Source of the DNA: a virus
Lineage: Duplodnaviria > Heunggongvirae > Uroviricota > Caudoviricetes
Reading direction: 5' to 3' (one strand)
DNA: 7,860 nucleotides
IMG/VR virus record: IMGVR_UViG_3300029219_000192
Positions 1-7,391 of the stretch are shown one piece after another. The translations under genes and the position numbers were made by a program. How positions within the stretch are numbered: position 1 is the first letter of the stretch; each line of letters starts with the position of its first letter. The notes beneath the pieces were generated by a model. It made no database searches, was not told the origin of the DNA, and saw nothing but the letters and a program-made list of their open reading frames with translations.

Positions 1-77
1 TAAGCAGAGTTTTTGAAATGTAAGGCCTTTGAATAAGACAAAAGGCTGCCTCATCGCTAACTTTGCAACAGTGCCCT
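1..77. repeat. Left copy of a perfect 77-bp inverted repeat (partner at 7762-7838); may extend beyond the window edge
   Basis: Bases 1-77 are the exact reverse complement of 7762-7838, checked base by base; first mismatch is at 78 vs 7761. The copy runs to window position 1, so its outer limit is unknown. Confidence 0.95.
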
Positions 78-225
78 TTAAAGCACGTTTTAATCCAGGT
101 CGGCCTGTCCTTATTCCGCTTAATTTATCTTCAAATATTTGTTCACATCCTGCACAAACAAGAGCGTTTCGTTGCAGGTCTGTATTCTGGTCATTTGTTG
201 ATACCCTTACATAGCCAATCAGCAC
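76..225 (-). pseudogene. pin: Serine DNA invertase (Pin/Gin/Hin family), N-terminal 50-codon fragment fused to the inverted-repeat sequence
   Basis: Minus-strand translation from GTG at 223-225, verified codon by codon: MLIGYVRVSTNDQNTDLQRNALVCAGCEQIFEDKLSGIRTGRPGLKRALK. This matches the invertase N-terminus including the catalytic-serine motif VRVSTNDQ; GGGAG lies 7 nt upstream of the start. Homology stops at codon 50 (76-78), exactly at the repeat boundary; the frame then reads GTVAKLAMRQPFVLFKGLTFQKLCL with no stop before the window edge. The catalytic-domain remainder and C-terminal DNA-binding domain are absent. Confidence 0.85.
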
Positions 226-279
226 GCTGAATCTCCCGTCCAAAAGCACAAATCATGCCATGCAGGCCAGAAACCGCCA

Positions 280-305
280 TTATCTAAAACCTCGGTTTAC
301 AGGAA
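280..305. other. pix/gix-like 26-bp crossover site for a Gin-family invertase
   Basis: TTATCTAAAACC-TC-GGTTTACAGGAA at 280-305 fits the gix/hix-type site (two 12-bp inverted half-sites around a 2-bp core; consensus recalled from memory, about one mismatch). It lies between the pin fragment and the tail-fibre cassette, the expected position. No second convincing copy was found in the window. Confidence 0.7.
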
Positions 306-329
306 ACGGTAAACAGGGCCAGGAACGCC

Positions 330-1292
330 GTGCAAAAGAATGGCGATACCTTGTCCGGTGGGCTTACTTTTGAAAACGACTCAATCCTTGCCTGGATTAG
401 AAATACTGACTGGGCAAAGATTGGTTTTAAAAATAATGCCGACAGCGACACTGATTCATACATGTGGTTTGAAACAGGCGACAACGGCAATGAATATTTC
501 AAATGGAGAAGCCGCCAGAGCACCACAACAAAAGACCTGATGACTCTTAAATGGGATGCTTTGTCTGTCCTTGTTAAAGCCCTTTTCAGCAGTGAAGTAA
601 AAATATCGACAGTCAATGCACTGAGGATATTTAATTCATCTTTTGGTGCTATTTTTCGTCGTTCTGAAGAATGCCTGCATATCATCCCTACACGAGAGAA
701 TGAGGGAGAAAATGGTGATATAGGGCCACTACGCCCCTTTACGCTTAATCTCAGAACTGGTCGGATAAGCATGGGGCATGGTCTTGATGTTACAGGGGAT
801 ATATTTGCAAACCGTTTTGCAATTAACAGTAGTACCGGCATGTGGATTCATATGCGTGACCAGAATGTTATTTTGGGACGCAATGCGGTATCCACCGATG
901 GTGCGCAGGCATTACTTCGTCAGGACCACGCTGATCGCAAATTTATGATTGGTGGACTGGGGAATAAGCAATTTGGCATCTACATGATTAATAACTCAAG
1001 GACAGCCAATGGCACCGATGGTCAGGCGTACATGGACAACAATGGCAACTGGCTTTGCGGTGCGCAAGTTATTCCCGGCAATTATGGTAATTTTGACTCA
1101 CGTTATGTGAGAGATGTCCGACTTGGTACACGTGTTGTTCAGACTATGCAAAAAGGCGTGATGTATGAGAAATCAGGTCATGCAATTACGGGGCTTGGCA
1201 TTATCGGTGCAGTTGATGGCGATGATCCGGCAGTATTCAGACCAATACAAAAATACATCAATGGCACATGGTATAACGTCGTACAGGTGTAA
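330..1292 (+). CDS. Side tail fibre protein, C-terminal variable (receptor-binding) cassette; lacks the constant N-terminal part
   Basis: 320-aa ORF from a GTG. The N-terminal region (QKNGDTLSGGLTFENDSILAWIRNTDWAKIGFKNN...YMWFETGDNGNEYFKWR) is the conserved segment found just after the crossover site in Stf-type fibres. The frame is open from 288, just past a TAA at 285-287 inside the pin-proximal pix half-site. It is followed 3 nt later by tfa. No constant tail-fibre region lies upstream. Confidence 0.8.
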   Translation: MQKNGDTLSGGLTFENDSILAWIRNTDWAKIGFKNNADSDTDSYMWFETGDNGNEYFKWRSRQSTTTKDLMTLKWDALSVLVKALFSSEVKISTVNALRIFNSSFGAIFRRSEECLHIIPTRENEGENGDIGPLRPFTLNLRTGRISMGHGLDVTGDIFANRFAINSSTGMWIHMRDQNVILGRNAVSTDGAQALLRQDHADRKFMIGGLGNKQFGIYMINNSRTANGTDGQAYMDNNGNWLCGAQVIPGNYGNFDSRYVRDVRLGTRVVQTMQKGVMYEKSGHAITGLGIIGAVDGDDPAVFRPIQKYINGTWYNVVQV

Positions 1293-1295
1293 TTT

Positions 1296-1823
1296 ATGCA
1301 GCATTTAAAAAATATTAAGTCTGGAAATCCAAAAACAAAAGAACAATATCAGCTAACAAAGAATTTTGATGTTATCTGGTTATGGTCCGAAGACGGAAAA
1401 AACTGGTATGAGGAAGTGAAAAACTTTCAGCCAGACACAATAAAGATTGTTTACGATGCAAATAATATTATTGTCGCCATCACCAAAGATGCCTCCACGC
1501 TTAACCCTGAAGGTTATAGCGTCGTTGAGGTTCCAGATATTACAGCCAACCGCTGCGCTGATGATTCCAGTAAGTGGATGTTTAGGGACGGAGCTGTGGT
1601 TAAACGGATTTATACGGCAGACGAGCAACAACAACAGGCCGAATCACAAAAGGCCGCATTGCTTTCCGAAGCTGAATCAGTCATCCAACCGCTGGAACGC
1701 GCTGTCAGGCTGAATATGGCAACAGACGAGGAACGCACACGACTGGAAGCATGGGAACGCTACAGTGTTCTGGTCAGCCGTGTGGATACGGCAAATCCTG
1801 AATGGCCACAAAAACCAGAGTAA
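1296..1823 (+). CDS. tfa: Tail fibre assembly protein (lambda Tfa family)
   Basis: 175-aa ORF starting 3 nt after the tail-fibre stop. The C-terminal region ([34 protein letters not shown]) closely resembles the lambda Tfa C-terminus (EAW..Y.VL..RVDT...EWP). Confidence 0.85.
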
Positions 1824-1826
1824 AAA

Positions 1827-2258
1827 TTAAGGCCCGATACCGGGCAAAACATCCGTCAACAGTTCATCAATTTCTGTCGGGCCGAAGCCTGTCAGGGAGA
1901 CATCAAAATCAGCATTGATTAGGTCCGACAGCTCCATCCGCAACAGATCTTCATCCCAGCCAGCATTCATCGGTAGGCGATTATCTGCCAGGCGGTACGC
2001 CTTTTTCTGCTCATCCGTCAGGCCAGACAGAACAATGACCGGAACAGAATCCATTTTGAGCATTTCAGCCGCCATAACACGACCGTGACCCGCAATAATT
2101 TCGCCCTTTTCGTCAATCAGCACCGGATTAGTCCAGCCGAATTGCTTAATACTTTCTACCAGTTGTGCCACCTGCTCAGTACTGTGCGTCCTGGCGTTGT
2201 GCGCATACGGTGACAATTCTTGTAATGGGCGATAGACTATCTTTAATTTCTCGCTCAT
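1827..2258 (-). CDS. ParB-like nuclease-domain protein (ynaK-like by position next to trkG)
   Basis: 143-aa ORF with an AAGG RBS. The N-terminal region (PLQELSPYAHNARTHSTEQVAQLVESIKQFGWTNPVLI) resembles ParB/sulfiredoxin-type domains. It sits directly downstream of trkG, as ynaK does in the Rac prophage. Its stop codon is 3 nt from the convergent tfa stop. Confidence 0.6.
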   Translation of the reverse strand: MSEKLKIVYRPLQELSPYAHNARTHSTEQVAQLVESIKQFGWTNPVLIDEKGEIIAGHGRVMAAEMLKMDSVPVIVLSGLTDEQKKAYRLADNRLPMNAGWDEDLLRMELSDLINADFDVSLTGFGPTEIDELLTDVLPGIGP

Positions 2259-2395
2259 ACAGCCTTGCTTTATGAATAAAACGCACCCCAGCAGCCAGTG
2301 CTACTGGGGGCGGAGGTGTTGCTGGTAAAGTTAGGTATTGGATCAATGAGTGAGTCAATATAATATTAAACTCACAATTATAAATCAGCCATATA

Positions 2396-3853
2396 TTAGG
2401 AGCGCCAAAAAAAACCTGAAAACAATATAATAACAGGATAAATTTCAAGGCGACCAAGAATCATAGCTATGCACATTAAATATTTTGCAATGTCATTAAG
2501 CACTCCGAATGACGATGCAGTAGCCCCAAAACCTAATCCCATATTATTAATACATGCAGCCACTGTTGCAAATGATGTAAGAAAATCATATCCCATACCA
2601 TTTAACACCAGTATAAAAAACACCGTGAAGAGAGTATAAAGAAAAAAGAAACTCCATACAGACCTCATTACACGATCTGTAACTATCTTCCCTCCTACAT
2701 TTACACTCAACAACGCTCTGGGATGAGAAAGCTGATTTATCTCGTGTTTGCTTTGTTTGAAAAGTATAAGAAATCGAAGTGACTTAATTCCACCACAAGT
2801 TGAACCTATACATCCCCCAAAGAAACTTGACGACAGCAAAAACACTATCGTGTGCGTGGGCCAGTTTGCATAATCCTGCGTAGCTAAACCATTATCAGTG
2901 AGCATGGAGCTGGCAAGAAAAAACGAATGAATAAAACTTCCATGCAAGTCATACATACCTATATGCCAGACCTGGAAAGAGGTAACAATGATCACCCCTA
3001 AGGCTATTAACAGAAAGAAACGAAGTTCAATATCTCTGATTAAAGGTTTTATCGTTTTCCTGCTAATAACAATATACCAAAGAGTGAAGTTGAAAGCCGA
3101 TAGCAGGGAAAAAGAACCAGCCACCAGCTCAACCAAATAGTTATTAAAATATCCGATACTCTCGCTATGAGTTGAGAAACCACCAAGCGAAACTGTGGAA
3201 ATCCCGTGACAAATAGCATCAAACAAAGGCATTCCTGCAAGTCTATAACAGACAATACAAGCAATACCTAATAAAGAATAAGTTATCCACAGTGTCCGTG
3301 ACGTATCGGCCAGGCGGGGAGTGAGTTTGTCATCCTTAAATGGCCCCGGCATTTCTGACTGATAAAGCTTTGTACCACCAATACCCAATAATGGCAATAC
3401 AGCAACCGCCAGAACAATAACTCCTAAACCACCTATAAAATTTAACTGTGACCGATAGTACAAATATGCCCGAGGTAATGAACTAACATCATCAATTACA
3501 GTTGCTCCTGTTGTTGTTATTCCAGAAACCCCTTCAAACAGAGCATCAATGAACGTTAAATTAAGTTCTGAGTCAATCCATAAAGGGAATGCACTAATAA
3601 CAGAAAACAAAATCCAAAACATTACAATTATAATAAACCCATCACGGGTACGTAATTGAATGCCAGATTTCTTAGTTGTATACCACGCTCCGCCACCAAT
3701 GCAAAAAAATATAACGAAAGTTATAAAGAAAACGAACAGGCTTTTTTCTTTATAAAACAATGCTACAACCATTGGTGGCAACATTGAAAGACTATAGAGC
3801 CAAACCAGGAACCCACACATATGAGTAACAACTCTTACATGAGATGTATTCAT
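2396..3853 (-). CDS. trkG: Trk-system potassium uptake protein, TrkH/TrkG family membrane subunit (prophage-borne)
   Basis: Long, very hydrophobic ORF with repeated glycine-rich pore-loop-like segments (ITTTGATV, FIGGLGVIVL, STVSLGGFSTH, FGGCIGSTCGGIK). It is strikingly AT-rich compared with its neighbours and lies beside Rz/Rz1, as in Rac. The start is taken as the ATG at 3851-3853 (MNTSHVRV..., 485 aa); the ORF-track start at 3871 is a TTG. Confidence 0.85.
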   Translation of the reverse strand: MNTSHVRVVTHMCGFLVWLYSLSMLPPMVVALFYKEKSLFVFFITFVIFFCIGGGAWYTTKKSGIQLRTRDGFIIIVMFWILFSVISAFPLWIDSELNLTFIDALFEGVSGITTTGATVIDDVSSLPRAYLYYRSQLNFIGGLGVIVLAVAVLPLLGIGGTKLYQSEMPGPFKDDKLTPRLADTSRTLWITYSLLGIACIVCYRLAGMPLFDAICHGISTVSLGGFSTHSESIGYFNNYLVELVAGSFSLLSAFNFTLWYIVISRKTIKPLIRDIELRFFLLIALGVIIVTSFQVWHIGMYDLHGSFIHSFFLASSMLTDNGLATQDYANWPTHTIVFLLSSSFFGGCIGSTCGGIKSLRFLILFKQSKHEINQLSHPRALLSVNVGGKIVTDRVMRSVWSFFFLYTLFTVFFILVLNGMGYDFLTSFATVAACINNMGLGFGATASSFGVLNDIAKYLMCIAMILGRLEIYPVIILFSGFFWRS

Positions 3854-3990
3854 ATCTAAATATTCTTTCAATTATAACCACCTTGCTGCAATATTATGAT
3901 TATACTGTATAAAATTTAACTCCTCTTAGATCTTACTTCACTGTTCCTTATGAAACAATCATCAAAATGAATCATATTGTAGTTAAGATT

Positions 3991-4455
3991 TTACTTTAAA
4001 CACTGCTCGGTTATGTATTGCTGAGCACCTTCAAGTTGGGCCTGCATCATTACCAGTCGTTCCCGGAGGGTGAAATAATCCCGTTCAGCGGTGTCTGCCA
4101 GTCGGGGGGAGGCTGCATTATCCACGCCGGAGGCGGTGGTGGCTTCACGCACTGACTGACAGACTGCTTTGATGTGCAACCGACGACGACCAGCGGCAAC
4201 ATCATCACGCAGAGCATCATTTTCAGCTTTCGCATCAGCTAACTCCTTCGTGTATTTTGCATCGAGCGCAGCAACATCACGCTGACGCATCTGCATGTCA
4301 GTAATTGCCGCGTTCGCCAGCTTCAGTTCTCTGGCATTTTTGTCGCGCTGGGCTTTGTAGGTAATGGCGTTATCACGGTAATGATTAACAGCCCATGACA
4401 GGCAGACGATGATGCAGATAACCAGAGCGGAGATAATCGCGGTTACCCTGCTCAT
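3991..4455 (-). CDS. Rz: Rz i-spanin (inner-membrane lysis protein)
   Basis: Near-identical to lambda Rz along its length ([68 protein letters not shown]...). The start is taken as the ATG at 4453-4455, which overlaps the upstream endolysin-remnant stop as ATGA; the track start at 4467 is a GTG. Confidence 0.9.
4050..4235 (-). CDS. Rz1: Rz1 o-spanin (outer-membrane lipoprotein), embedded in Rz in the +1 frame
   Basis: 61-aa ORF wholly inside Rz. It has a lipoprotein signal with lipobox LVVVGC and a proline-rich region ([24 protein letters not shown]), matching lambda Rz1. Confidence 0.85.
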
Positions 4456-4676
4456 TGTTGCCCCCACAAACAGACCTCACGCTCAATCTCACGACGAGTC
4501 ATCAGGCCTTTCCATTGCTTACCGCCAGCGTATGCCCAGCGACGTAGCTGGTCACATGCGCCCTTGATATCGCCCTGGTTTATTTTGCGAAGAAGAGTAG
4601 ATGTTCTGAAATTGCCTGCGCCCACGTTATAGACGAACGAGTAAAGAGCGCCGCGCGTTGTTTCCGGTAGGTGCGA
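4452..4676 (-). pseudogene. Phage endolysin (lysozyme, R21/RrrD-like) 3' remnant: about the last 70 codons only
   Basis: Minus-strand frame ending at the TGA that overlaps the Rz start: ...[71 protein letters not shown]. This matches the C-terminus of lambdoid lysozymes (from memory). The frame is closed upstream by a TGA (plus 4677-4679) with no start codon; the N-terminal catalytic part and the holin gene are absent. Confidence 0.6.
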
Positions 4677-4794
4677 TCACTTTCGTCTACTCCGTTACAA
4701 AGCGAGGCTGGGTATTTCCCGGCCTTTCTGTTATCAGAAATCCCCTGAAAGCACAGCGGCTGGCTGAGGAGATAAATAATAAACGGGGGGCTGT

Positions 4795-4986
4795 ATGCAC
4801 AAAGCATCTCCTGTTGAGTTAAGAACGTGTATCGAGATGGCACATAGCCTCGCTCAAATTGGAGTCAGGTTTGTGCCAATACCAGTAGAAACAGACGAAG
4901 AATTTCATACGTTAGCCGCATCCCTTTCACAAAAGCTGGAAATGATGGTGGCGAAAGCAGAAGCAGATGAGAGAGACCAGGTATGA
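4795..4986 (+). CDS. Small early-region protein, YdfA-like (63 aa)
   Basis: ATG ORF with a G-rich RBS, MHKASPVELRTCIEMAHSLAQIGVRFVPIPVETDEEFHTLAASLSQKLEMMVAKAEADERDQV. Its stop overlaps the next start as ATGA. It resembles, from memory, the first gene of the ydfA-ydfB-ydfC trio of the Qin prophage. Confidence 0.5.
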   Translation: MHKASPVELRTCIEMAHSLAQIGVRFVPIPVETDEEFHTLAASLSQKLEMMVAKAEADERDQV

Positions 4987-5376: not shown

Positions 5377-5598
5377 ATGGCAGACATCATTGATTCAGCA
5401 TCAGAAATTGAAGAATTACAGCGCAACACAGCAATAAAAATGCGCCGCCTGAACCACCAGGCTGTATCTGCCACTCATTGTTGTGAGTGTGGCGATCCCA
5501 TAGATGAGCTAAGACGCCTGGCCGTTCAGGGTTGTCGGACTTGTGCAAGTTGCCAGGAAGATCTGGAGCTTATCAGTAAACAGAGAGGTTCGAAGTGA
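5377..5598 (+). CDS. DksA/TraR-family C4-type zinc-finger protein (phage TraR-like)
   Basis: 73-aa ORF with four-cysteine motif ...HCCECGDPIDELRRLAVQGCRTCASCQ... Size and motif are typical of TraR-like proteins in lambdoid early regions. Confidence 0.8.
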   Translation: MADIIDSASEIEELQRNTAIKMRRLNHQAVSATHCCECGDPIDELRRLAVQGCRTCASCQEDLELISKQRGSK

Positions 5599-5846
5599 GC
5601 GTAATTCACTCTCAGGCACTGCGTGAAGCGGCAGAGCAGGCAATGCCTGACAACTGGGGATTTGACGCGGACCTTTTCCATGAGCTGGTAACACCATCGA
5701 TTGTGCTGACACTGCTGGATGAACGGGAAAGAAACCAGCAATACATCAAACGCCGCGACCAGGAGAACGAGGATATTGCGCTAACGGTGGGGAAACTGCG
5801 TGTTGAGCTGGAGACAGCAAAAATCAAAACTCAACGAGCAGCGTGA
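5595..5846 (+). CDS. Ead/Ea22-like early protein, N-terminal part; ORF closed by TGA but coding-like frame continues to 6008
   Basis: GTG start overlapping the TraR-like stop (GTGA). MSVIHSQALREAAEQAMPDNWGFDADLFHELVTPSIVLTLLDERERNQQYIKRRDQENEDIALTVGKLRVELETAKIKTQRAA resembles Ea22-family N-termini (from memory). After the TGA at 5844-5846 the same frame stays open for 53 more codons. Confidence 0.45.
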   Translation: MSVIHSQALREAAEQAMPDNWGFDADLFHELVTPSIVLTLLDERERNQQYIKRRDQENEDIALTVGKLRVELETAKIKTQRAA

Positions 5847-6144
5847 GTAGAAGGTGTTATCTCGGATGGAAGTAAGCGTATTGCTGAACTGGAGGCCTGG
5901 GTTGAATACACAAGAGCTGCATACGTAAGAGCAAAAGACAAGGGAGATTTGATCAGAGTTATTACCCGCCAACCAACGGGATTTTACGCTTACGTACCAT
6001 GTAATTAGGAATCCTTGAAGTGGCAGCCTAACTGCGGATACACTGAAATGGCGATTTGGTAACATGTTTCGCACAAGGCTGTTACTACACTTAGAGATAA
6101 TCAGCCATGATTAAACGCTTTGTAAAAAGTAAAAGGAAATTACA

Positions 6145-6759
6145 ATGAAAAAATCAATACTAATTTTAGGGCTTACGTTAATTGTCTCATCTCAAATACC
6201 ATCGGCAATGGCAAAAAATGAATCAAAACTATGGGTTGTTGTTGATCGAACGGAAAGACATACCTGCCCTTCAAGTAAATGTGGAGTGGCTGGGAAACTA
6301 TTTTTCAGGGAAGGCGTAGATTTTCTAGAAAAAAAAGGTGAATGGGTTCGTATAACTGAGCCATATTCAGCCTCATGTGTTGGAGGGGAAAGCGAATATA
6401 TTAAAGAAGGTAATAAATCCTGCACAAGAAAAAATGGAATCGTTAATGGCAAGTTTTCAGAATGGGTTAAACTTAGTGATCTTAGCAGTGAAAGGCCATC
6501 AGATCCTGCTGAAAATGCGAGCGGAGATGATACTTTAATCAAAGGATCTGATGACTACCGTATATACAAAAAAGAGTTTTCTTCGGCAGCTAGGAAGTTA
6601 ATAAATGAAGGGGTCTGCACGGAAAGCGATTTTAAGGAAATCGGAGGGTGGATGGCATCAAGCAATAAGGGTGAAAACATCTATTTCACATATTGCGGAG
6701 GAATGACGTTGTCGAACAGAATATACCTAGATGTTAAAAGTGGAAAGACTTTTAGATAA
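6145..6759 (+). CDS. Secreted (Sec signal peptide) cysteine-containing protein of unknown function; AT-rich cargo gene
   Basis: 204-aa ORF with an AAGGAA RBS. N-terminal MKKSILILGLTLIVSSQIPSAMA-KNE is a typical signal peptide with an AxA cleavage site and no lipobox. Several Cys lie in the mature part. Composition is visibly AT-rich compared with flanking genes, and a strong terminator follows. Confidence 0.7.
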   Translation: MKKSILILGLTLIVSSQIPSAMAKNESKLWVVVDRTERHTCPSSKCGVAGKLFFREGVDFLEKKGEWVRITEPYSASCVGGESEYIKEGNKSCTRKNGIVNGKFSEWVKLSDLSSERPSDPAENASGDDTLIKGSDDYRIYKKEFSSAARKLINEGVCTESDFKEIGGWMASSNKGENIYFTYCGGMTLSNRIYLDVKSGKTFR

Positions 6760-6912: not shown

Positions 6913-7052
6913 TTGCTGGTTGTCGATTCCTCAATCACTCCTGTTGATGGCTCTCTTCTTGTATGTGCCATTGAAGGGGAATATCGCGTAAAAAGATACC
7001 GGAAGTATCCGCGCCGCCATGATTGTCTTTCTCCTGATGCAGGAAAAGCAGA
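6913..7052 (+). pseudogene. S24 peptidase (LexA/UmuD/cI-type) C-terminal-domain remnant
   Basis: LVVDSSITPVDGSLLVCAIEGEYRVKRY resembles the conserved core of the S24 autoproteolytic domain (compare UmuD LLIVDSAIT...VIAAVDGEFTVKKL). There is a stop codon 6 nt upstream of 6913, no catalytic-Ser region, and the downstream translation is not protein-like. The homologous core is roughly 6913-7000. Confidence 0.4.
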
Positions 7053-7391
7053 ATGGCTAAATCAGCAACAGAGCACAAAGCCGATCAGAGAGCCAAGCAA
7101 GCATCATCCGGTATGCGTAAGCTGGAGCTTGTACTTGATGCTCAGGAAATTGAAATGCTGGAGCGTAACTGTGCCACGCGTCGCTTCAGGCGTGCGCCTT
7201 GCGAGTTTGGTGAGTACATCGCGTTACTGAGCCGCCAGGATGATGCACGTGTGCGCTGGCGTATAAAATCGATCAGCAGAAAACGGTGCGGTAAGTGCGG
7301 CGAGAGAGTTCCTGTTAATTCATGCCCGTGTAATGGTGACTCACAATGCTGGGTGACCAAAGGCTGGCACGAAACAAAATTAATGATATAA
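7053..7391 (+). CDS. Hypothetical protein with C-terminal Cys cluster (putative zinc ribbon)
   Basis: 112-aa ATG ORF with an AGGA RBS. C-terminal C-x2-C-x8-C-x-C-x5-C (RCGKCGERVPVNSCPCNGDSQCW). No family recognised. Confidence 0.6.
   Translation: MAKSATEHKADQRAKQASSGMRKLELVLDAQEIEMLERNCATRRFRRAPCEFGEYIALLSRQDDARVRWRIKSISRKRCGKCGERVPVNSCPCNGDSQCWVTKGWHETKLMI

What the first reader, a model, noticed from the sequence alone, without database searches (positions are those of the whole stretch)
5595..6008. In-frame TGA splits an Ea22-like reading frame; 53 further codons continue in frame
The ORF ending at the TGA (5844-5846) continues in the same frame as VEGVISDGSKRIAELEAWVEYTRAAYVRAKDKGDLIRVITRQPTGFYAYVPCN to a TAG at 6006-6008. 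No competing ORF with protein-like translation covers 5847-6008. This suggests a recent nonsense mutation (pseudogene) or, less likely, stop-codon readthrough.
Basis: seen in the sequence. Interest (0 to 1): 0.4.

Follow-up and report, generated by a model that had tools for sequence, protein, structure and literature searches.

The report
Ea22-like phage gene broken by two indels
The in-frame TGA is real, but it comes from a one-base insertion plus a four-base deletion that together scramble nine codons of a lambda-type ea22 gene, leaving an ordinary prophage pseudogene that RefSeq already flags as frameshifted.

Summary
A GTG-started ORF (5595-5846, 83 aa, Pfam Ead_Ea22 E=1e-20) ends at TGA 5844-5846, and the same frame stays open for 53 more codons to TAG 6006-6008.

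The cause is not a nonsense substitution. Compared with lambda ea22 and uninterrupted alleles, the window has one extra A in an A-run (5819-5823). It also lacks TTAC after 5849. The net change is -3, so codons 77-85 are read out of frame (IKTQRAA*V instead of SKLNEQREYY). The TGA is the cgTGAg of native CGT GAG.

The downstream 52 codons are the native C-terminus. They occur in uninterrupted ORFs in rare metagenome contigs and match two PHROG families.

The two-indel allele is in about 100 complete E. coli genome records, 32 IMG/VR contigs and the isolated phage Chlobot. The codon is TGA in the window, Chlobot, one metagenome contig and all 32 IMG/VR contigs. Neither single-indel intermediate was found.

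No complete E. coli genome among the 118 that carry this short-tail allele class was seen to have it intact. A second lineage has two TAG stops instead.

There is no hairpin after the TGA and no Rfam hit. PGAP already calls the locus "frameshifted; incomplete". It is ordinary gene decay in a degraded prophage, and interest is low.

The parts
5377..5598 (+). Upstream TraR/DksA-type zinc-finger gene. Its TGA stop overlaps the GTG start of the Ea22-like ORF (GTGA at 5595-5598).
   Evidence: PF01258, E=1.5e-8; annotated as TraR/DksA in identical RefSeq loci.
5595..5846 (+). The reading frame that is still open: 83 aa, covering the Ea22 N-terminal region and most of the coiled coil. It starts at the GTG homologous to lambda ea22's annotated GTG start and ends at the TGA.
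   Evidence: PF13935, E=1.3e-20. The lambda CDS starts with GTG.
5819..5823 (+). Run of five A's carrying one extra A relative to lambda ea22 and the uninterrupted alleles (+1 insertion).
   Evidence: DNA alignments.
5823..5849 (+). Out-of-frame patch, codons 77-85, read as IKTQRAA*V. The same bases read one position later give SKLNEQRE, as in homologues.
5844..5846 (+). The in-frame TGA. It is formed by the last base of native CGT plus the first two bases of native GAG.
   Evidence: The codon is TGA in all 32 IMG/VR copies of this allele.
5849..5850 (+). Site of the 4-nt deletion. Lambda and the uninterrupted alleles have TTAC here (GAGTA|TTAC|GAAGG). The deletion returns the reading to the native frame.
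5850..6008 (+). Remaining 3' coding sequence in the native frame (52 codons plus TAG), now cut off from translation.
   Evidence: It is identical in the uninterrupted contig L004.
5895..6005 (+). Short C-terminal tail module that replaces the lambda-type Ea22 C-terminal domain. It is related to an internal segment of phrog_21749 and phrog_20174 proteins, for example phage Cyrano CDS CYRAN_97.
   Evidence: Lambda similarity stops at about 5893. PHROG hits have E=6.6e-9 and 1.2e-8. tblastn gives 77% identity to Cyrano.

Best explanation
This is an inactivated (pseudogenised) mosaic allele of the lambdoid exo-xis gene ea22.

Shown:
- The ancestral gene encoded about 138 aa: a lambda-like N-terminal region and coiled coil, followed by a short non-lambda tail.
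- Two small indels lie 26 nt apart. One is an extra A in an A-run, typical of replication slippage. The other is the loss of TTAC.
- Together they shift nine codons out of frame, and the shifted reading exposes a TGA hidden in native CGT GAG.
- Because the indels sum to -3, the downstream sequence falls back into the native frame. This is why the frame appears to continue.

Inferred:
- Translation from the GTG at 5595, coupled to the upstream TraR/DksA gene, ends at the TGA. It yields at most an 83-aa fragment with the N-terminal region and most of the coiled coil.
- The tail is not translated, apart from whatever basal UGA leakiness the host allows.
- The allele spreads passively inside lambdoid phages and prophages, because ea22 is an accessory lysis-lysogeny modulator and is not needed for phage growth.
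For: - The one-frame translation shows the TGA and the open continuation. The next frame reads KSKLNEQRE* across the same bases.
- Protein alignment: uninterrupted homologues read AKSKLNEQREYYEGVISDGSKRIAELEAWVEY...VPCN, while the window reads AKIK-TQRAA*VEGV.
- DNA alignments with contig L004, E. coli ET358 and lambda ea22 place a +1 A at 5819-5823 and a 4-nt gap (TTAC) after 5849. Lambda reads ACAGCAAAATCAAAACTCAACGAGCAGCGTGAGTATTACGAAGGT.
- Undoing the two indels gives a clean 138-codon ORF that is 92% identical to lambda-type Ea22 over residues 1-102. It also matches the full Pfam Ead_Ea22 model, positions 2-139, at 95 bits.
- RefSeq PGAP annotates the identical locus as 'ead/Ea22-like family protein; frameshifted; incomplete'.
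- The allele is real and widespread: 104 E. coli records match a 91-nt query over the patch at >=99% identity, and 32 IMG/VR contigs carry it, all with TGA. The isolated phage Chlobot carries it identically.
- A second, independent inactivation of the same allele class exists. It has two TAG stops after AEL in all four genomes I translated (ET358, TC24, AH65 and 1409).
- Among the 118 of 5,426 complete genomes carrying the short-tail class, none matched the uninterrupted L004 allele above 97.4%.
- Three of 31 IMG/VR copies carry further upstream damage.
- Polymorphism within the allele is 6 nonsynonymous to 3 synonymous sites.
- The window as a whole is a decayed prophage with six annotated pseudogenes next to IS26.
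Against: - The tail has picked up no stop codon in any type-A copy examined. Only one strict nonsense event separates the gene from an open frame. That leaves room for low-level readthrough product.
- One 887-nt metagenome contig (L002) has TTA in place of TGA, which restores a 137-aa ORF. It could be a true revertant.
- The two indels were never seen apart. Their order, and whether they were one event or two, is unknown.
- Whether the 83-aa fragment keeps any activity was not tested.
Confidence: 0.9

Rival explanations
1. A single recent nonsense substitution (for example TGG or CGA to TGA) in an otherwise collinear reading frame.
For: The frame is open on both sides of the TGA. One database protein (P0011) shows W at this position, and one (P0001) shows L.
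Against: Homologues are not collinear here: nine codons are out of frame and the length differs by 3 nt. P0011's DNA has TGA, and its W residues sit at TGA codons, so the call was probably made under a TGA=Trp code. The TGA bases are present unchanged in lambda ea22 as cgTGAg.
Confidence: 0.02
2. Programmed recoding of the UGA, by readthrough or selenocysteine insertion, producing both an 83-aa and a 137-aa isoform.
For: The downstream frame is open and intact in every type-A copy examined. The net -3 of the two indels keeps the tail in frame. From general knowledge, UGA is the leakiest stop codon in E. coli.
Against: There is no stable hairpin after the UGA: MFE -18.9 kcal/mol, z=0.34, and 122 of 200 shuffles fold at least as well. 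There is no Rfam family match anywhere in the window. In homologues the UGA position is not a Cys or Sec codon and is not even in the same frame. A net multiple of 3 is expected by chance about one time in three. The sister lineage is closed by two TAG stops.
Confidence: 0.03
3. The truncated 83-aa product (N-terminal region plus most of the coiled coil) is itself a maintained, functional short Ea22. It might, for example, co-assemble with Ea22 from co-resident lambdoid prophages. On this reading the gene is shortened rather than dead.
For: Two independent truncations (83 aa here, 100-103 aa in type B) both keep this part and are far commoner than uninterrupted short-tail ORFs. Codons 1-100 show dN/dS of about 0.22 between the two lineages, against about 0.88 in the tail. 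Full-length Ea22 is tetrameric and the coiled coil makes up over half the protein (PMC10834534).
Against: The low dN/dS may date from before the truncations, because the N-terminal module is shared by recombination with full-length alleles. Within type A, sites upstream of the TGA are 4 nonsynonymous to 2 synonymous, and 3 of 31 copies have further upstream indels or deletions.
Confidence: 0.08
4. A sequencing or assembly error in an A homopolymer.
For: One of the two changes lies in a homopolymer run (5819-5823).
Against: The allele is identical in many independently sequenced complete genomes, in 32 IMG/VR contigs and in one isolated phage. The second change is a 4-nt deletion that is not in a homopolymer.
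Confidence: 0.01

Closest known systems
Bacteriophage lambda Ea22 (NP_040612, 182 aa; exo-xis region, pro-lysogenic; PMC7093339, PMC10834534)
   Same: The GTG start is homologous. The DNA is 93.4% identical over the first 299 nt, and the repaired protein is 92% identical over residues 1-102, which cover the N-terminal region and coiled coil. The position is the same, downstream of the orf60a (DUF1317) and orf63 (DUF1382) homologues and upstream of xis/int.
   Different: The lambda C-terminal domain (residues from about 102 to 182, solved by NMR) is absent and is replaced by an unrelated 38-aa tail. The reading frame is broken at codon 84 by the two-indel patch. A TraR/DksA gene directly precedes it here.
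Uninterrupted short-tail Ea22 alleles (P0002-P0005, 141-183 aa, from metagenome contigs such as L004)
   Same: The tail is the same, and the tail DNA is identical in L004. The neighbours are the same: Rz-type lysis gene, DUF1382, a 93-aa ORF, TraR, Ea22 and a 204-aa ORF.
   Different: They read SKLNEQREYY with no stop. They are singletons or very small clusters. L004 combines a type-B N-terminus with a type-A tail, so it may be a recombinant or an assembly chimera.
Type-B short-tail alleles (E. coli ET358, TC24, AH65, 1409; 100- and 103-aa products such as P0096)
   Same: They belong to the same allele class, sit at the same locus and are also inactivated. PGAP marks them 'incomplete; missing C-terminus'.
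   Different: The patch is intact. The lesions are GAG>TAG and TGG>TAG just after AEL, plus five amino-acid replacements in the tail.
phrog_20174 and phrog_21749 proteins (for example Escherichia phage Cyrano CYRAN_97, 220 aa, function unknown)
   Same: They share the segment WVE(Y/C)TRAAYVRAKDKG(D/E)L(I/T)RV(I/V)T at 77% identity.
   Different: In those proteins the segment is internal to a larger protein that has no Ea22 domain. Here it forms the C-terminal tail.

Membership tests
Ead/Ea22-like family (Pfam PF13935 / IPR025153) | Significant match to the Ead_Ea22 profile | tested here: met
   The 83-aa ORF scores 74.8 bits (cut-off 27, E=1.3e-20). The repaired 138-aa sequence scores 95.3 bits and covers profile positions 2-139.
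Ead/Ea22-like family (Pfam PF13935 / IPR025153) | Location in the exo-xis region of a lambdoid phage, on the same strand as exo and xis | tested here: met
   In E. coli AMSHJX01 and phage Chlobot the identical allele lies between exo and xis/int, after the DUF1317 and DUF1382 genes. Lambda has the same order. In the window itself exo has been lost to prophage decay.
Ead/Ea22-like family (Pfam PF13935 / IPR025153) | Three-part architecture: short N-terminal region, central coiled coil, C-terminal domain (PMC10834534) | tested here: inconclusive
   The N-terminal region and coiled coil are present and lambda-like. The lambda C-terminal domain is absent and a 38-aa unrelated tail takes its place. 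C-terminal regions are known to vary within the family. No structure was predicted here.
Ead/Ea22-like family (Pfam PF13935 / IPR025153) | Uninterrupted reading frame encoding the whole protein | tested here: not met
   TGA at codon 84 lies inside a frameshifted patch. PGAP annotates the locus as frameshifted and incomplete.
Ead/Ea22-like family (Pfam PF13935 / IPR025153) | Pro-lysogenic activity and tetrameric state | not testable with these tools
   This needs lysogenisation assays and light-scattering or similar measurements. Only the literature on lambda and Stx-phage Ea22 is available.
Compensated (double) frameshift pseudogene | Two indels summing to a multiple of 3, with the intervening bases matching homologues only in a shifted frame | tested here: met
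   The indels are +1 at 5819-5823 and -4 after 5849. The next frame reads KSKLNEQRE as in homologues.
Bacterial selenocysteine or programmed UGA recoding site | Stable stem-loop (SECIS-like) immediately 3' of the UGA | tested here: not met
   Folding 5835-5920 gives z=0.34 against shuffles. There are no Rfam matches in the window.
Bacterial selenocysteine or programmed UGA recoding site | Homologues carry Cys or another sense codon, or a conserved UGA, at the aligned in-frame position | tested here: not met
   Homologues are in a different frame at these bases. The only sense variant is a TTA in a single 887-nt metagenome contig.

The most novel reading that the evidence does not exclude
The two-indel allele might be a pseudo-revertant rather than simple decay. 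On this reading a first lesion closed the frame, and the second put the leaky UGA in frame with the native tail. Basal UGA readthrough would then supply a trickle of full-length Ea22-like protein alongside an abundant 83-aa coiled-coil fragment. That dosage combination would be tolerated or even favoured in lambdoid phages, which could explain why the allele persists unchanged in an active phage and in about 100 genomes.
Probability: 0.04. Interest if true: 0.4.

Novelty: already known. Interest (0 to 1): 0.08.

Why it matters
It matters little beyond annotation hygiene. The case shows that an in-frame stop with an open continuation can be the product of a compensated double frameshift rather than a point nonsense mutation. 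It also shows that database homologues with a sense residue at the stop can be gene-calling artefacts, as with the W at a TGA codon in P0011. For Ea22 biology, it documents a short-tail allele class that was interrupted in every complete E. coli genome I translated, by two independent routes. It also shows that a plaque-forming phage (Chlobot) carries the broken allele. Both points fit ea22 being dispensable.

Tried and rejected
- **Recoding signals.** RNA folding after the TGA gave z=0.34 and the Rfam gathering-threshold scan of the whole window found nothing.
- **NCBIfam.** No hits for any of the three pieces.
- **Opposite-strand ORF 5781-6074.** It has no significant Pfam or PHROG match. 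It is annotated as a hypothetical protein in phage Chlobot, but I treat it as spurious.
- **Apparent sense-codon homologues.** P0011's W sits at a TGA in its DNA, so it is most likely a code-4-type call. P0001's L is a real TTA, but only in one short contig.
- **Single-indel intermediates.** Synthetic deletion-only and insertion-only queries against 5,426 E. coli genomes gave no full exact match. Degenerate exact patterns against IMG/VR gave zero hits each.
- **Unresolved records.** Three E. coli records in the 95-99% identity band were not looked at individually.
- **Tail-only protein search.** It returned only four short chimeric ORFs. The first attempt failed because the query was one residue too short.
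- **Not run.** Structure prediction and the large representative-protein search, because they would not change the verdict.

Full report
**Observation**

A GTG at 5595 opens an ORF of 83 codons that ends at TGA 5844-5846. The same frame then runs for 53 more codons (VEGVISDGSKRIAELEAWVEYTRAAYVRAKDKGDLIRVITRQPTGFYAYVPCN) to TAG 6006-6008.

The GTG overlaps the TGA stop of the upstream TraR/DksA zinc-finger gene (GTGA). It is homologous to the annotated GTG start of lambda ea22.

The 83-aa product matches Pfam Ead_Ea22 (PF13935) at 74.8 bits, E=1.3e-20.

Given the window's base composition, 53 open codons have a chance probability of about 0.04.

A 97-codon ORF on the opposite strand (5781-6074) overlaps the region but has no significant family match.

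**What the stop codon really is**

The next reading frame over the same bases reads ...KSKLNEQRE*. That is the sequence homologues show at this point.

A protein search with the joined sequence found a few uninterrupted ORFs with the same tail (P0002-P0005). They read ...ELE(T/A)AKSKLNEQREYYEGVISDGSKRIAELEAWVEY...YVPCN. The window reads ...ELETAKIK-TQRAA*VEGVISDG....

DNA alignments with metagenome contig L004, E. coli ET358 and lambda ea22 locate the cause:
- Lambda reads ACAGCAAAATCAAAACTCAACGAGCAGCGTGAGTATTACGAAGGT.
- The window has five A's instead of four at 5819-5823.
- The window lacks TTAC after 5849.

The net change is -3. Codons 77-85 (5823-5849) are therefore read out of frame. The TGA is the cgTGAg of the native CGT GAG (Arg-Glu), and from 5850 the native frame resumes.

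Undoing the two indels in silico gives a clean 138-codon ORF. It is 92% identical to lambda-type Ea22 over residues 1-102 and covers the whole Pfam model at 95 bits.

Homologues do span it, but in another frame, and the lesion is a compensated double frameshift rather than a nonsense substitution.

**Apparent sense-codon homologues**

P0011 shows W at the stop position. Its contig L003 has TGA there and a second in-frame TGA upstream, also shown as W. The tool reported that the locus does not translate to the query. The W most likely comes from a gene call made with a TGA=Trp code.

P0001 shows L and really has TTA, but it comes from a single 887-nt metagenome contig. It could be a revertant or an error.

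**Is the downstream part coding sequence?**

Yes.
- It is identical at the DNA level in the uninterrupted contig L004.
- Residues 16-44 of the 53 match phrog_21749 and phrog_20174 (E=6.6e-9 and 1.2e-8).
- tblastn finds 77% identity to an internal segment of a 220-aa hypothetical protein of phage Cyrano.
- Lambda similarity ends at about 5893.

The ancestral gene was therefore a mosaic: a lambda-like N-terminal region and coiled coil, plus a short foreign tail in place of the lambda C-terminal domain. This fits the known mosaic nature of Ea22 C-termini (PMC10834534).

**Distribution**

The 768-nt stretch covering the TraR gene, the Ea22-like gene and the spacer is 100% identical in at least 40 complete E. 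coli genome records. 118 of 5,426 genomes carry a place that covers at least 80% of it.

| Test | Result |
|---|---|
| 91-nt query over the patch, E. coli records at >=99% identity | 104 |
| Same query, records at 95-99% identity (not inspected) | 3 |
| Synthetic deletion-only allele, E. coli genomes | no record at >=99% |
| Synthetic insertion-only allele, E. coli genomes | no full-length exact match |
| IMG/VR contigs with the two-indel patch | 32, all with TGA |
| IMG/VR contigs with either single-indel pattern | 0 each |

The isolated phage Chlobot (PP925838) carries the allele identically within a normal exo-to-int early region. Full-length product is therefore not needed for phage growth.

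**Signs of decay**

RefSeq PGAP annotates the identical locus as [quoted passage not shown].

Among the 118 genomes with the short-tail class, none matched the uninterrupted L004 allele above 97.4%. By identity and hit length, 26 listed hits form a second lineage, type B. In all four type-B genomes that I translated, the patch is intact but AEL is followed by two TAG stops, and the tail carries five amino-acid replacements. I did not translate the other 22; they share the same identity values.

| Comparison | Result |
|---|---|
| Type A vs type B, codons 1-100 | 10 synonymous, 7 nonsynonymous changed codons; dN/dS about 0.22 |
| Type A vs type B, tail | 1 synonymous, 7 nonsynonymous or nonsense changed codons; dN/dS about 0.88 with the stop codons left out |
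| Within type A, 28 IMG/VR copies | 6 nonsynonymous, 3 synonymous polymorphic sites |
| Type A copies with extra upstream indels or deletions | 3 of 31 |

The numbers are small. They fit relaxed constraint and do not suggest a protected recoding site.

**Recoding**

The 86 nt around and after the TGA fold no better than shuffles: -18.9 kcal/mol, z=0.34. The Rfam scan of the whole window found nothing.

From general knowledge, UGA is the leakiest E. coli stop codon, so a trace of readthrough product cannot be excluded. Nothing here points to a designed mechanism. A net multiple of three for two indels is expected about one time in three.

**Context**

The window sits in a decayed prophage remnant. 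In order it contains:
- a tail-fibre fragment and a tail-fibre assembly gene;
- a ynaK fragment and trkG;
- an Rz-type lysis gene and a lysozyme (rrrD) fragment;
- exo-xis genes (DUF1317, DUF1382, a hypothetical gene, TraR/DksA and the Ea22-like pseudogene);
- a 204-aa ORF, a DNA-repair gene fragment and a DUF2513 gene.

In strain AH04 this stretch has IS26 on one side and xis/int on the other, and PGAP marks six pseudogenes in it. In other strains the same block lies on 145-454 kb replicons.

**Verdict**

The feature is real, but it is ordinary gene decay and is already captured by standard annotation. The added value is the exact mechanism (+1 and -4, net -3), the demonstration that the tail is native coding sequence, the independent type-B inactivation, and the exposure of a misleading database homologue.

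Noticed in passing
L006:3001-3417, L008:301-726, L009:301-717, L010:301-717: A second lineage of the same short-tail Ea22 allele (E. coli ET358, TC24, AH65, 1409) has the patch intact but two in-frame TAG stops right after ...KRIAEL (GAG>TAG, TGG>TAG), plus five replacements in the tail. It gives the common 100- and 103-aa products such as P0096, which is seen on 211 contigs.
   Followed up: partly
L003:191-739 (ENA contig k141_214511): Database protein P0011 shows W at two positions where the DNA has TGA, so it was most likely called with a TGA=Trp code. This contig also puts the two-indel patch behind a different, longer Stx-phage-like N-terminus. That could reflect recombination or a chimeric assembly.
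   Followed up: partly
L002:56-469 (ENA scaffold_7657, 887 nt): This is the only copy found in which the TGA is TTA (Leu), restoring a 137-aa ORF that still contains the frameshifted patch. It may be a true revertant or an error.
   Followed up: no
P0121-P0124 (Logan/ENA short ORFs): Four 56-63-aa ORFs fuse unrelated N-termini to ...KRIAELEAWVEY...VPCN. Two begin MHKASPVELRT, the start of the window ORF at 4795-4986, which is annotated as a DUF1382 family protein in strain AH04. This suggests deletion variants or assembly joins in this region.
   Followed up: no
window 5781-6074 (- strand): A 97-codon opposite-strand ORF overlaps the Ea22 3' part. Most of it is annotated as a hypothetical protein in phage Chlobot, but it has no significant Pfam or PHROG match. 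It is probably a spurious call.
   Followed up: yes
window 1-4800: The rest of the window is a rearranged prophage remnant: a tail-fibre fragment (330-1292), tfa (1296-1823), a ynaK/ParB-like fragment (1827-2258, - strand), trkG (2396-3871, - strand), Rz and an embedded Rz1-like ORF (3991-4467 and 4050-4235, - strand) and a lysozyme rrrD fragment (4452-4625, - strand). The lysis genes abut the exo-xis genes head to head. IS26 lies next to it in several genomes, and in some strains the block is on 145-454 kb replicons.
   Followed up: partly
window 6145-6759: A 204-aa ORF with an N-terminal signal-like hydrophobic segment and several Cys residues has no Pfam match. It always follows the Ea22-like gene in these loci, in the position that ea8.5 occupies in lambda. 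Its function is unknown.
   Followed up: partly
window 6913-7230: PGAP annotates a 'DNA repair protein' fragment with a missing C-terminus within this ORF (window 6913-7020 in strain AH04). In phage Chlobot the whole ORF is called UmuD-like. There is no Pfam hit at E<=0.01. It is another likely pseudogene in the same block.
   Followed up: partly
L004:2791-3216 and L008:301-726: Some alleles carry a 9-nt tandem duplication (GTGCTGGAAC-TGCTGGAAC) that gives LELLELL instead of LELL in the N-terminal region.
   Followed up: no
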